In this document: positions 1 through 6,000 of the stretch, piece by piece | Layout: each line of letters starts with the position of its first letter | Position numbering within the stretch: position 1 is the stretch's first letter | Assembly (NCBI GenBank): GCA_964654465.1 | Contig: CAZZIO010000035.1 | Location: 1-64,000 of the forward strand | Length of the DNA stretch: 64,000 bases | Source of the DNA: an uncultured Dictyoglomota bacterium | GTDB lineage: Bacteria > Dictyoglomota > Dictyoglomia > Dictyoglomales > Dictyoglomaceae | Reading direction: 5' to 3' | Made by a program: the position numbers

Positions 1-3000
1 ATGAAGGAAGAGGAGGCTACTGGTGATTAGAGCGGAGGGGAAACGCCCGTTCCCATTCCGAACACGGAAGCTAAGCCCTCCAGCGCCGATGGTACTGCCC
101 TGGCAACGGGGTGGGAGAGTAGGTCATCGCCAGAGAGCCTCCTCTTTTTTTGATCAGTGTAAATTATTTCTGTTATTATTTTTAATCAATTTTAAAATTA
201 GGAATCTTGACAAAAAATTTTTAAAATGTTAGTATTATTTCAAAAAGAATTTGTTAAGAACCTTTCCAGGCGAGGGTCCCCTTCCCCCCTCACCCATCAC
301 CCCCTACCTCGCCTGGAAAGTTCTTTTAATTAATATATGCAAAAAGGGAGGAGTTTAAAATGAAAAAAATGATGAAGAATAATAGATTTTTAAAAATTTT
401 TTTAATGATTATATTATTTGTCCTATTAATTCATACATCTTACTCAATAGCCAATATAGGAGAAAATGAAAAAGCTATAGATTTTTCACTTAAAGATCTA
501 AAGGGGAAAAATTATAGGCTTTCTGATTTTAAAGGGAAAGTTATTTTATTAAATTTTTGGGCTACATGGTGCCCTCCATGTAGATATGAAATGCCGTTAT
601 TAGATAAGCTATACAAGGAACATAAAAATAAAGGATTTGAAATAGTGGCTGTTAGTCTAGACTCCAATCCTAAAAATGTTAATGATTACTTAAAGAATAA
701 TCCAGTTAGTTTTACTATTCTTTCTGACAGAGAAGGAAAAGCAGGATATACATATCAAATTGTAGCTATACCAACATCTTTTTTAATTGATAAAAATTTT
801 ATTATAAGAAAAATTTATTTAGGAATTATCTCAGAAAAGGATATTAAAAAGGAATTGGAAAAATGGCTAAAAAAGTAATTATAAGATTTTTTATATTCTT
901 TCTTATATTCCTTTTTTTGACTATTGGTATTTATATGGGAGAATTTTATGAGATCTATAGAAATAGTATTATTTTGTGTTTATCTTGTATAGGTATTCAA
1001 TAATTATTAGTAAAAATAATCTTTTTCTCTGAAATAATAATATCAACTTTTTGATCGTAAGGATCTTTTGGAAGTTCATTAATGATTAAATCGTCAAAGG
1101 TTAAACCTATTTTTATACCTCTTTTAATGTTGCTTAAAAAACGATCATAGTAACCTTTACCATAACCTATTCTATAACCTTTAACATCAAATGCAATTCC
1201 AGGTACTACAATAATATCGAACAAGTTATAATCTATTTCATAAATCTCCTTAGGTTGCAGTATACCAAATGGACCTTTTTCTAAATCATTAATTGTCTTA
1301 ATTTCTCCAAATTTTAAGTCTTTACCAAAGATAACGGGGCAAAATACTCTTTTGTTTTCTACAAGAGCATGATAAATTATGAACCTTGTATCTACCTCAT
1401 CTTTTATAGAGACATAAGTGTTAATTATAGATGCTTTTCCCCAAATAACTAAATTCTTCAGCTTATGAAAAATTTCATGAGATTTTACCTCTTTATCTCT
1501 TATATTCCTTCTTTTTTCTAAAAATATCTTCCGCAATTCTTTTTTATCCATTTATATAACCTCTTTTCTTTTTTTAGTTTATATATTATAATCCAAAAAA
1601 GCCTGCAGATCTTTAGGATCGCGGGACAATATCAATAAATATCAATATAAATAGTCAAATCAAAAAAACGGCATCCCTTGTTGGGGAGCCGGAAGGGAGG
1701 TATTAAAATGTTTAAAAACATCAAAAAAATCTCATTAGCATCTCTTTTTGTTGCAATTACCCTCTTATTAGGTTTTTCACGTATAGGCTATATATCCCTA
1801 CCAACACCAGCAGGTGCTGCAACAATAATGCATATTCCAGTGATATTAGCAGGCATTGTTATGGGACCATGGTTTGGAGCCTTAGTAGGTAGCATTTTTG
1901 GCATTTCTGCAGTTATGTATTTTTCCCATATTGCTCCTTTCTGGGTGCTTTTTCCTGCAAGACCTTTTATTGGTATTGTTTCAGGTCTTGTTTATAATTT
2001 TCTCTTATCCTTTTTTAGGTCTCAAAAGAAGCTTAAAAACTCTACCGCTTTTATTATCTCTTTTGTAGTTTTCTCTTTCGCATATCTTAGTGGTGTCTAT
2101 ATCATGAGAGAGTGGTTTACAGAAAGCCTTATTAATTACTCTTTAGAATTTAGTTTTTTAATAGCTTTAATCTCTTTTATCATAGCTTTTTTAATTTTAT
2201 TTATAATAAAAGAAAAAGAAGGAGAAATAGTTGCCATTGGAATAGCATCCTTCTTAGGAAGTATGACTAACACTGTGGGAACTCTTGGTCTTGCAGCAAT
2301 TTTTAAAATTTTCCCATTAGGAGTTATTATATCCATAGGAATTCTTCATGGTATTCCAGAAGCAATTATCGCGTCAATAATTTGTCCACCTATAGTTGTA
2401 TTATTAAAAAGATTAATTAAGGAGAGTGCATAGGGTATGCTTTTAACTATAGATATCGGCAATTCAAATATAGATATAGCTTATTTTAAAAAAAATAAAA
2501 TTATATCTCATTATGAATTTGAGACTAAGAAATACTCTACAAGCTATGAATATTCACTACTTATTGAATGGACTCTAAAAAGAAATGGGATCTCCGAGGC
2601 TAAAGTAGAAGGTATAGCTATATCTTCTGTAGTTCCATCTCTTACCTCAGTTTTTGTTGATGCCATAAGATATATCTTCAATTATTCTCCTTTTGTTGTA
2701 GAACCAGGAATAAAAACAGGAATCTCCATAGAGACAGAAAACCCCAAAGAGGTAGGTTCAGATCTTATATGTAATGTGGTTGCTATTCAAGAAGAGTATG
2801 GTCCAGTTGGAATAGCTATAGATTTTGGCACAGCAACTACTTTTTCTGCTATAGAGAATAAGAAATTTTTAGGAGTAGCTATAGCACCGGGCGTAGGGAC
2901 GGCATCCTACGCCCTCTTTGAAAAAACCGCTAAACTTCCTCAAGTAGATATTAAAGCTCCAGAATCTTCCTTAGGAAAAAACACTATATCTGCAATTCAA

Positions 3001-6000
3001 GCAGGAATAGTTTTTGGGTTTGCAGGACTTGTTGATGGAATTTTAGAAAGACAAATATCAGAAATGAATGGAAATCCTGTTCTTATAAGTACTGGTGGTT
3101 GGGCTAAAAGAATAGTACCTCATTCAAAATACCTTAAATTAGAAAATATTGATCCTTATCTTACTCTTAAAGGACTTTGTTATCTTTATAAAAAAAACCT
3201 GTGATATAATATAAAAAGTTTAAGATTATTTTAAAAACAATTTAGTGGGGTGTATTAAAAATGTTTAAAAAACTTTTTGTCTTTCTTTTAGTTTTATTAA
3301 TCCTTATTGTCCCTATTTTTGCTCAAGCAACAAAAAGGGTAGCAATAATAACATATCTAAAAGGAAATGTTTATGTAAAAAAGGCTGAATCAGAGTTATG
3401 GATACCTGCTAAGTTAAAAATGGAACTTTCTTCAGGAGATAAGATTTGGGTACAACAAAACTCACAAGCTATATTAGAGTTTTCAGATAGATCAACCCTA
3501 AAACTTGCTTCAAATACCCAGCTTGATATTTTAAGATTGGATCGTGATAAAGATACACAAAAAGAAGTATCAATATTTAAATTACTTTTAGGAAAAGTAT
3601 GGGCGACAGTTGAGAAGATATTATCTATAGGAGAAAGAGTAGAGATACACACACCTACAGCTGTTGCAGGTGTAAGAGGTACGGAATGGATTCAGCAAGT
3701 AAGTGAAGATGGAACGACTGTGGTGAAAACTCTTAAAGGAGTAGTTTCTTTTTCTGCTAAAGGTGTAACAGTAGATGTAAAAGAAGGTTTTCAAAGTATT
3801 GTAAAACCTGAAAATCCTCCTGAAAATCCGACACCAATAACAGAAATTGAAAAGTTTGATGAAGAAGAGAAACCAAAAGAAGAAAAGCCCAAAGAAGAGA
3901 TTAAAGAAGAGAAACCTATTACACCTCCTCAAAGGGGATCATCCGAAGGTGTTAGATTAGCGCTTAATAATAATTTAGATTATGGTTTATATAAAAAGAA
4001 TGATTTGATGCTTGCTAAACTTTCCTTTTCTCCAGAACTTTCTTTTGGAATATTAAAACTCGGTCTTGATCTTTCTTTATATACCGATGGAGAAAGTATA
4101 AGTTATATTCAAGGAAAAATAAGGTATGGAGAACTAAATTTACCTTGGCTTGGAATAAAATATGGTGTTATAGATCACTTTACTCTTGGATACGGATTAA
4201 TTGCCAATAGATATTCCACATATGAAATGGAGGGGGTAGTACTTCGATTAGAAGATCCAAAAAGAGGGGGTATTCTTACTCTCTTTCCTTCTCCTTTTAA
4301 TAAATATGAAAATCTAACCTCAACATATGCATTGAGAGCTTTTTATCGACCCATAAATAGATTAGAAATTGGTATAAATGGTATGATGGATATGGATGTT
4401 GATGAAAATAAAAGACAAGCAATAGTTGGAGCAGATTTATCGTACTTTTTGACAAAAAATACTGTTATTTATTCATCTTTTGCACAAAGAATAATACATG
4501 ATGGAGTAACAATTAGTGATCCAAGAGTTCTAAGTGAAAATGGTGTTGCATTAGGTCTTCAAAGCAATTTCAGTCTTTTCAACAGTGTTTTTAGTGTCCA
4601 GCTAATAAACTTTTCTGATAATTTTTATCCTGGTTATTTCAATGCTTATTATGAAAAGAATAAGGTACTTAAAACTCTATCTCCTTTAAAAGAGTCTGTA
4701 AATAGAATATTTGGTTTAACATTAGACTTAGACACTAATATATTAAATATTGCCTTTTTAAATGTAAATTACCAATCTTTTAATGGTATGCGTCCATCTA
4801 TATATAGTAGATTTACTATGTCATTAAATGAAAGATTAAAGATGAACTTACTATACGAGCAAAAAGAGATAAAAACTCCATTTATGCTCTTTAATGAAAA
4901 TACAATTATGACTTTAAATATAACCTATCCATTAGCTCAAAATGTAGATGCTATACTAACTATAAAAAGAACTTTTGATCCTTATGGTAATCCAACAGAT
5001 ATATATTTTGTATCGACAAAGTTAAGACTTTAAAAAGTGAATTATATAAATAGGTTTATAAAGAATGGCATAATAATAAGATGTATAATAGTGCTAATAT
5101 CTTTTGTAGTGACTTTATTATTGTTTCAAAGTCAAGTACTTCAAAAACTTGAATTAGGCTCTATTAACTTAAGATTTATATTTAGAGGGGAGAGAGAGTC
5201 AGAAAGTAATATCGTAATAATAGGAATAGACGATAATTCAATACAAGAATTAGGTAATTTTCCTTGGAATAGATCTTTATATGTGGAATTAATAAATAAA
5301 CTAGGGAAAAATCCCAAAATTATAGCCTTTGATATATATTTTGATACAGAAACAACTCCGGTAGATGATAAGAAATTTGAGGAACTTTTAAAAAGGGATA
5401 AAAGGATAATACTTTCTGCTTTTTATATATCAGTGGATGATCCAAGATATGGTTCTCTTAAAAGACTCTTTCTTCCCATTGATAAATTTTTGAAAAACGC
5501 TAAGGTTGGACTCGTTAATCCAGAACATGATTTGGATGGATTTATAAGAAGATTCCAACTAAAAAATTTCGTATTAGAAAAGGAATGGATTTCTTTTCCT
5601 TTTTTAATAGCATTAAAATATCTTTCTCTAACTTCAGACGAATATATTTCTAAAACAAAATTGTTCACAGATAAAAAAAATAACATATATATAAATTACA
5701 GAGGAGGACCCTTTAGTTATCCTGTTTACTCTTTTGTTGATATATTAAAAGGAAATATTGATCCAAATGTTTTTAAAAACAAAATTGTTCTTATAGGTGC
5801 AGTAACTGAGACATTACACGATACTCATTTTACTCCATTTTATGGTTTTATAAGATATGGAGGTTCTATTAGATTAGGAAAAATGCCGGGAGTAGAAGTT
5901 CATGCTAATGCTATAGACACCCTTATTAGCAAAGATTTTATAAAACCTTTTAATGATGGATCCCCATTATATATAATTACACTACTTATGAATTTTATTC

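What a model noticed while it worked through the whole genome (the two positions that open the first line are those of the whole stretch)
1708..3204. CoA made by pantetheine salvage: CoaBC lost and CoaX pantothenate-binding Arg replaced
Dictyoglomota have no CoaBC yet keep CoaX, CoaD and CoaE. Their type III pantothenate kinase (g00859) has Leu instead of the substrate-binding Arg of the hGhDR motif and an altered interface motif, and follows an ECF S component (g00858). The operon is predicted to import and phosphorylate pantetheine, which type III kinases are held unable to use; it marks a widespread CoaX subfamily tied to CoaBC loss.
Evidence so far: DFP PF04127 0 of 11 genomes, 14 of 14 controls; PF02441 0 of 5; GADR in solved CoaX vs GSDL here; G[AS]DL in 11 of 11; 67 of 80 pattern loci are CoaX with DL/DI across more than 10 phyla; 39 of 50 such genomes tested (50 of 66) lack CoaBC; ECF-coaX adjacency in 10 of 10 relatives.
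(Added by a program. Inside this text positions count along the whole contig: contig position 1 is position 1 of the stretch shown here. "Call 12" and the like, gene names such as g00115 and contig names such as C1 are that model's own, and its searches are not shown. The text may have been shortened before it was handed on; [...] marks where a part breaks off. The agent that wrote the report below was given it as the finding of a first reader that could run no searches.)

Follow-up and report, generated by a model that had tools for sequence, protein, structure and literature searches.

The report
CoaX rewired for pantetheine salvage
Many bacteria that have lost two middle steps of coenzyme A synthesis carry a version of the first enzyme with a rebuilt substrate pocket, which suggests that it phosphorylates ready-made pantetheine, something this enzyme type is held unable to do; the idea is in print for mycoplasmas but has never been assayed.

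Summary
Observation confirmed. The window holds a PanT-like ECF S gene (1708-2433) and a type III pantothenate kinase (2437-3204) with Leu for the PAN-motif Arg. The genome (99.97% complete) has CoaD and CoaE but no CoaBC, PanBCD or other PanK; CoaB is missing in 11 of 11 genomes of the phylum.

Genomes with only an Arg-less CoaX lack CoaB in 20 of 20 Anaerolineae and 56 of 58 Clostridia; genomes with an Arg-type CoaX have it in 61 of 68 and 72 of 75. It is not one subfamily: the change recurs (at least 11 changes on well-supported branches; monophyly rejected), while catalytic residues stay intact.

Best reading (about 0.72): a pantetheine kinase, probably still able to use pantothenate, fed by the ECF transporter. 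Against: no assay; 9 of 17 Mycoplasma Leu/Ile enzymes sit in genomes with CoaBC; the S component shows no special change. The core idea was proposed for Mycoplasma (PMC8721197) and the shunt for gut strains (PMC6593275). New here are the breadth, the convergence, the marker residues and a thermophile's enzyme to test.

The parts
1708..2433 (+). ECF transporter S component, PanT-like; candidate importer of pantetheine or a derivative
   Evidence: PF12822 E 8e-17; only PDB sequence hit 6zg3_C, weak, E 0.14 (that this chain is PanT is recalled); directly upstream of coaX in 11 of 11 genomes of the phylum; aligns with S components beside Arg-type coaX
2437..3204 (+). Type III pantothenate kinase (CoaX), Arg-less variant; predicted pantetheine kinase
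   Evidence: PF03309, NF009855; AlphaFold2 model pLDDT 96.3, TM 0.92 to solved CoaX 2h3g
2755..2766 (+). PAN motif G107-S108-D109-L110: catalytic Asp kept, Arg replaced by Leu (codon 2764-2766)
   Evidence: sequence, alignments to solved CoaX
2734..2736 (+). Thr100, where 127 of 224 Arg-type rows have Tyr and 0 of 101 Leu/Ile/Met-type rows do
2845..2847 (+). Ser137, where Arg-type CoaX have Asp or Cys (200 of 224 rows) and Leu/Ile/Met-type almost never do (2 of 101)
2872..2892 (+). INTERFACE motif G146-G152 with Val147 for the second Gly
   Evidence: Gly in 94% of Arg-type, 25% of Leu/Ile-type

Best explanation
These cells cannot turn pantothenate into CoA. They take up pantetheine (or a disulfide of it) through the PanT-like S component and the shared EcfAA'T module. 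The Arg-less CoaX phosphorylates it to 4'-phosphopantetheine, and CoaD and CoaE finish CoA. The pocket residues that grip the carboxylate of pantothenate (Arg110, Tyr100; roles from PMC8721197 for the Arg, recalled for the Tyr) and the co-varying position 137 are replaced by small or hydrophobic residues, which would suit the neutral amide-linked cysteamine tail. The enzyme probably keeps some pantothenate activity. Shown: gene content, residues, co-variation, repeated origin. Inferred: the substrate of the kinase and, more weakly, of the transporter.
For: (1) G000 has CoaD, CoaE and an ECF module but no CoaBC, PanBCD, type I or type II PanK. (2) Anaerolineae: Arg-less only, 20 of 20 lack CoaB; Arg-type, 61 of 68 have it. 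Clostridia: Arg-less only, 56 of 58 lack it; Arg present, 72 of 75 have it. (3) Ten independent pairs on supported branches: CoaB loss goes the same way in 8.1 on average, never the other way, sign test median p 0.008. (4) In 80-genome panels (76 Arg-less CoaB-minus genomes plus 4 of the phylum): CoaD 80 of 80, PanC 0 of 80, type I PanK 0 of 80 over cut-off, type II-like 12 of 80; so 68 of 80 have no other known PanK. (5) D6, N9, D109, D129, T132 and G220 are as conserved in 85 Leu/Ile-type as in 137 Arg-type proteins. (6) Two of four exceptions carry CoaBC with damaged motifs. (7) All 5 CoaB-minus genomes whose only CoaX has Lys (pocket otherwise ordinary) hold a type II PanK-like gene, against 7 of the other 75.
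Against: No assay. All 17 Mycoplasma enzymes in the published alignment have Leu/Ile, and 9 of them are from species listed with CoaBC. G240 has a panB-panC-panD-coaBC operon with intact motifs and only a Leu-type CoaX; G192 likewise has intact-looking CoaBC; no type I or II PanK was found in either. G219 and G302 have an Arg-type CoaX, no CoaB, and (G219 tested) no other PanK; 7 of 68 Arg-type Anaerolineae lack CoaB. B. subtilis CoaX does not support growth on pantethine. The S component keeps the Arg that aligns with the conserved Arg of PanT-like proteins and shows no diagnostic change.
Confidence: 0.72

Rival explanations
1. The kinase acts on an oxidised or blocked form (pantethine, cysteinopantetheine or another mixed disulfide, S-acyl pantetheine) rather than on free pantetheine; reduction follows.
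For: Cysteinopantetheine is the precursor present in complex medium for B. subtilis. The genomics cannot tell these substrates apart.
Against: The organisms are largely anaerobes with a reducing cytoplasm (general knowledge). In B. subtilis the mixed disulfide enters by a cystine ABC transporter, not an ECF.
Confidence: 0.08
2. The cells import 4'-phosphopantetheine directly and need only CoaD and CoaE; CoaX lost its Arg by relaxed selection and is kept for another, perhaps regulatory, job.
For: Many mycoplasmas have only CoaD and CoaE; M. tuberculosis CoaX is reported inactive and was solved bound to Dop (9cku). The Lys/Gln variants look like simple decay.
Against: Catalytic residues are fully kept. 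The replacement is nearly always Leu/Ile, with coordinated changes at 100, 137, 144 and 147. CoaX is 69-96% identical across the phylum, more than its S neighbour at 50-91%, and stays next to a vitamin transporter.
Confidence: 0.09
3. An unrelated enzyme pair replaces CoaB and CoaC, and the Arg-less CoaX is an ordinary pantothenate kinase fed by PanT.
For: The S component is PanT-like. Mycoplasma, G240 and G192 pair Leu-type CoaX with CoaBC.
Against: Both domains are absent together; the PF02441 hits in 53 of 80 genomes are single-domain proteins, UbiX in 2 of 2 and SpoVFB in 5 of 5 checked. PanC is absent from 80 of 80. The replacement would have to arise in every lineage that lost the Arg, and it would not explain the pocket change. 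No shared unknown gene lies beside Arg-less coaX across clades.
Confidence: 0.07
4. The correlation is an artefact of incomplete assemblies or shared ancestry.
For: Most genomes are MAGs; completeness was requested at 90% or more but not displayed for the class samples.
Against: CoaD is found in 80 of 80 of the same genomes; two single-contig genomes of the phylum lack CoaB; the independent-pair test holds.
Confidence: 0.02

Closest known systems
Type III pantothenate kinase CoaX (PF03309; solved 2h3g, 3bex/3bf3, 3djc, 9b78)
   Same: Fold (TM 0.88-0.94), 40% identity to 2h3g, all catalytic motifs.
   Different: PAN-motif Arg replaced by Leu, interface Gly by Val, plus positions 100 and 137; genome lacks CoaBC. 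Assayed members do not use pantetheine.
Mycoplasma PanK-III with Leu/Ile (Ras, Strauss, Botes 2021, PMC8721197)
   Same: [quoted passage not shown]
   Different: There limited to one parasitic genus, unassayed for want of soluble protein, and not tied to CoaBC loss (9 of 17 have CoaBC). Here free-living lineages, near-complete coupling, repeated origin, a linked transporter.
Pantetheine shunt by type I CoaA (E. coli, B. subtilis) and the Apn genome pattern of 91 gut strains (PMC6593275)
   Same: Same three-step route and gene pattern (PanK, CoaD, CoaE, no CoaBC).
   Different: Demonstrated only for other PanK types; that paper gives no residue-level account in the passages read and finds known B5 transporters in only 12% of such strains.
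ECF-PanT (PMC7755397)
   Same: S component of the same Pfam family; group II layout, with the EcfAA'T module elsewhere in G000 (C34:16022-18497).
   Different: Shorter loop before the conserved Arg and a longer middle segment; substrate untested; the word pantetheine does not occur in that paper.

Membership tests
Type III pantothenate kinase (CoaX) | ASKHA fold and family HMM above cut-off | tested here: met
Type III pantothenate kinase (CoaX) | PHOSPHATE1 and PHOSPHATE2 motifs and catalytic Asp of the PAN motif | tested here: met
   D6, N9, D109, D129, T132 present
Type III pantothenate kinase (CoaX) | PAN motif hGhDR with the pantothenate-binding Arg | tested here: not met
   Leu110
Type III pantothenate kinase (CoaX) | INTERFACE motif GGxIxPG | tested here: not met
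   Val147 in place of the second Gly
Type III pantothenate kinase (CoaX) | Phosphorylates pantothenate, not pantetheine | not testable with these tools
   needs an assay
Pantetheine shunt (PanK + CoaD + CoaE without CoaBC) | CoaBC absent, CoaD and CoaE present | tested here: met
Pantetheine shunt (PanK + CoaD + CoaE without CoaBC) | A kinase shown to accept pantetheine (type I or II) | tested here: not met
   no type I or II PanK in G000; the one weak type II-like ORF is a PF01869 protein of the CoA-dehydratase-activator kind
   15 changes on the full tree; at least 11 forced by supported branches among 76 rows; AU p 0.0004
ECF-PanT S component | Family match and conserved pocket Arg and Asn | tested here: inconclusive
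   PF12822 met; Arg and TNT motif align with PanT-like neighbours of ordinary coaX; PDB hit weak; no PanT-specific model was matched
ECF-PanT S component | Transports pantothenate | not testable with these tools
   needs an uptake assay

The most novel reading that the evidence does not exclude
Type III PanK has been converted to a pantetheine kinase many times over by the same few pocket changes. One residue then marks obligate pantetheine auxotrophy in a whole phylum, about a fifth of sampled Anaerolineae and about two fifths of sampled Clostridia that have CoaX, and the adjacent PanT-like ECF proteins are the missing pantetheine importers. This would mean large-scale cross-feeding of a CoA fragment that adding vitamin B5 cannot replace.
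Probability: 0.45. Interest if true: 0.8.

Novelty: new variant of a known kind. Interest (0 to 1): 0.64.

Why it matters
Reviews and primary papers state that type III PanK cannot use pantetheine and that organisms with it cannot bypass CoaBC. Yet 73 of 150 sampled Clostridia genomes have no CoaB match. A remodelled CoaX resolves this. It predicts that many uncultured gut and anaerobic bacteria need pantethine rather than pantothenate in their medium, gives annotators a one-residue marker, and names a candidate for the unknown pantetheine importer. The only group found to have raised the question could not get soluble enzyme; a thermophile's enzyme should make it directly testable.

Tried and rejected
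A genome-wide census of the motif was not obtained, so the number of phyla that carry it is open; the related-loci scan returned 73 Arg-type and 7 Leu/Ile-type loci of 80. One Arg-less subfamily: rejected. A hidden CoaBC in G000: none by Pfam, tblastn, phmmer or a custom HMM. A type II PanK in G000: rejected. A pantetheine-specific signature in the S component: none seen. Riboswitch or leader RNA: only 5S rRNA in 1-4000; promoter and terminator scan near chance level. Expression: no RNA holder listed. The original structure paper on the PAN motif was not held, and no coordinates were available to measure pocket distances. Earlier scan findings were not available. No complex prediction was run.
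Full report
Observation. The window carries two genes 3 nt apart on the + strand: 1708-2433 and 2437-3204. 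The first is an ECF S component (PF12822). The second is a type III pantothenate kinase; its AlphaFold2 model (pLDDT 96.3) matches solved CoaX at TM 0.92. Named homologues at 70-96% identity are mostly Dictyoglomus proteins. The PAN motif ends in Leu110 where all five solved CoaX shown have Arg, and the interface motif has Val147 for Gly. All 11 genomes of the phylum have Leu and the S gene directly upstream.

Pathway in this genome. G000 is 99.97% complete and has no PF04127 or PF02441 match, while 14 of 14 controls do. E. coli queries find CoaD (C35:75204-75698) and CoaE (C45) but not CoaBC, PanB, PanC, PanD or CoaA. An HMM built from CoaBC homologues in my loci finds nothing better than E 0.27. 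No type I or type II PanK is present. An EcfA-EcfA'-EcfT module lies on C34. PF04127 is absent from 11 of 11 genomes of the phylum, two of them single contigs; PF02441 from 10 of 10 searched; CoaE is present in 5 of 5.

How general is the link? Among 140 representatives at 50% identity (9 of 149 left out for length), 34 have Leu/Ile/Met and 106 Arg. Of 50 of the 80 loci, 5 of 7 Leu/Ile-type genomes lack CoaB and 39 of 43 Arg-type have it (this count and one tree row include G033, which is marked unpublished). To avoid selecting on the motif I drew class samples, asking for at least 90% completeness; the figure was not displayed. The class names rest on the record titles of the centre loci.

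Anaerolineae: 101 genomes, 88 with CoaX. All 20 with only Arg-less CoaX lack full-length CoaB (19 of 19 without the centre genome, which was chosen as Leu-type); 61 of 68 Arg-type have it. Eight genomes with only weak partial PF04127 hits (E 8e-5 or worse, some just over the Pfam cut-off) were counted as lacking CoaB, five of them Leu-type. The same kind of weak hit occurs as a second match in genomes with full CoaBC.

Clostridia: 151 genomes, G256 not scored, 133 with CoaX. Of 58 with only Arg-less CoaX, 56 lack CoaB. Of 75 with an Arg-type copy, 72 have it, counting G182, whose stand-alone CoaB passes the NCBIfam cut-off.

Controls on the 76 Arg-less CoaB-minus genomes plus four of the phylum: CoaD 80 of 80, PanC 0 of 80, type I PanK 0 of 80 over cut-off, type II-like 12 of 80. 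PF02441 rings in 53 of 80, always in short single-domain frames; these were UbiX in 2 of 2 and SpoVFB in 5 of 5 checked, and the rest were not checked one by one. So these cells must get phosphopantetheine, cannot make it from pantothenate, and in 68 of 80 have CoaX as their only known PanK.

Not one subfamily. I masked nine motif columns and built a FastTree of up to 325 CoaX rows. It needs 15 changes between Arg and non-Arg (shuffled mean 85, so the trait is clustered). On 76 chosen rows, well-supported branches force at least 11 changes (quick search, LG+G4). AU tests reject one clade of all Leu/Ile rows (p 0.0004) and of Dictyoglomota plus Chloroflexota Leu rows (p 0.0008). Among 287 rows with both traits (four genomes with two CoaX types left out, G182 then counted as CoaB-minus), ten independent pairs show CoaB loss going with Arg loss in 8.1 on average and never the other way (median p 0.008). 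The tree is unrooted, so some changes may be reversals.

The pocket is rebuilt, not decayed. Catalytic and ATP-binding positions are equally conserved in 137 Arg/CoaB+ and 85 Leu-Ile/CoaB- proteins. The columns that differ most are 110, 137 and 100, with 144 and 147 among the top six. Tyr100 occurs in 0 of 101 Leu/Ile/Met rows and 127 of 224 Arg rows; Asp or Cys at 137 in 2 of 101 against 200 of 224 (the rows include a few loci fetched twice). The Arg binds pantothenate according to PMC8721197. That the Tyr also contacts the carboxylate, and that position 137 neighbours the Arg, is recalled or inferred and was not measured. A second class has Lys or Gln at 110 but keeps Cys137 (7 of 7) and mostly Tyr100 (5 of 7). 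All five CoaB-minus genomes with only a Lys-type CoaX encode a type II PanK-like gene, three of them next to a PanT-like S gene; of five such proteins scanned, four pass the NCBIfam type II cut-off. Those five genomes are close kin, so this is one observation, but it fits: where CoaX is not remodelled, another kinase type is on hand.

Transporter. An S gene lies within 600 nt of coaX in 10 of 21 Arg-less and 5 of 73 Arg-type Anaerolineae loci, and in 28 of 65 and 21 of 77 Clostridia loci. The S proteins of both groups look alike, and the window's keeps the conserved Arg that appears to match the one PMC7755397 lists for pantothenate binding. A pantothenate-only importer would be useless without CoaBC, so a broader specificity is inferred, with less confidence than for the kinase.

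Evidence against. Four genomes have only Leu-type CoaX plus CoaBC, and no type I or II PanK was found in them. In G011 and G015 CoaBC motifs are damaged (a CoaC loop is missing in one, the CoaB Asn and Lys in the other), but G240 and G192 look intact, and G240 has a panB-panC-panD-coaBC operon. In the Mycoplasma alignment all 17 enzymes have Leu/Ile, and 9 come from species listed with CoaBC. The simplest reading is that the variant broadens specificity rather than switching it, which then permits CoaBC loss. G219 and G302 (Arg-type, altered interface, no CoaB) and 7 Arg-type Anaerolineae without CoaB are unexplained; assembly gaps are possible.

Literature. PMC8721197 (introduction, two results sections, discussion and part 1 of supplement 1 read; Figure 8 not seen) already reports the substitution and proposes pantetheine use, without an assay. 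PMC6593275 (passages) proposes the shunt for 91 gut strains and notes that the transporter is mostly unknown. PMC11487621 (abstract, one results section, discussion) shows that B. subtilis CoaX does not serve the shunt. PMC12570885, PMC7770189, PMC7755397, PMC13688837, PMC5167688 and bioRxiv 10.64898/2026.04.11.717937 were seen as passages. The last assigns the shunt to a type III kinase in a symbiont without comment; PMC5167688 says D. turgidum lacks pantothenate synthesis, and the passages seen do not mention CoaBC. Nine searches found no assay of an Arg-less CoaX and no cross-phylum analysis. Subscription journals, theses and bioRxiv supplements were not searchable and may hold one.

Verdict. 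A real and well-supported genomic pattern. The protein is a CoaX by fold and catalysis but fails two substrate motifs of the family, and most likely works as a pantetheine kinase (about 0.72; about 0.8 if disulfide forms are counted). The hypothesis exists in print for one genus; the convergence, near-complete coupling, co-varying residues, type II alternative and transporter link were not found in print. New variant of a known kind, interest 0.64.

Noticed in passing
window 10177-11760 (-): RibF (FAD synthetase/riboflavin kinase) fused to cytidylate kinase in one 527-aa ORF; a 535-aa counterpart lies in G004 (L372:1127-2731).
   Followed up: partly
window 3261-7986 (+): Run of genes after coaX: a FecR-domain protein, then what read as a membrane adenylate cyclase and a GAF/HD-GYP protein (motifs read from the sequence, not scanned). 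The FecR gene follows coaX in 11 of 11 genomes of the phylum.
   Followed up: no
window 19-135 and about 260-322: 5S rRNA at the contig start, followed by a long G+C-rich inverted repeat ending in a T run, seen by eye.
   Followed up: no
L357, L360, L361 (G298, G215, G245); L363 (G181): Type II PanK-like genes paired with PanT-like S genes in CoaBC-less Clostridia, and one beside a Leu/Ile-type coaX: a second route to the same salvage.
   Followed up: partly
L329:1103-2314 (G011); L330:3948-5171 (G015): Full-length CoaBC with eroded catalytic motifs in genomes with Leu-type CoaX, possibly loss in progress.
   Followed up: partly
L150 (G156); L312 and L313 (G181); L315 and L321 (G238): Two Arg-less coaX copies in one genome, in tandem in G156.
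   Followed up: no
L367:2442-3284 (G241); L368:2049-2864 (G268); L369:2047-2835 (G310): Stand-alone streptococcal-type CoaB-like genes; G241 and G268 have no CoaX match.
   Followed up: partly
L114:137-1366; L118:80-1405: Anaerolineae CoaBC has Ser where E. coli CoaC has the Cys of its substrate loop.
   Followed up: no
L294, L309, L316, L284 (Clostridia): Arg-type CoaX nested among Leu/Ile-type proteins, each in a CoaB-positive genome and two next to coaBC: retained ancestors or reversals.
   Followed up: partly
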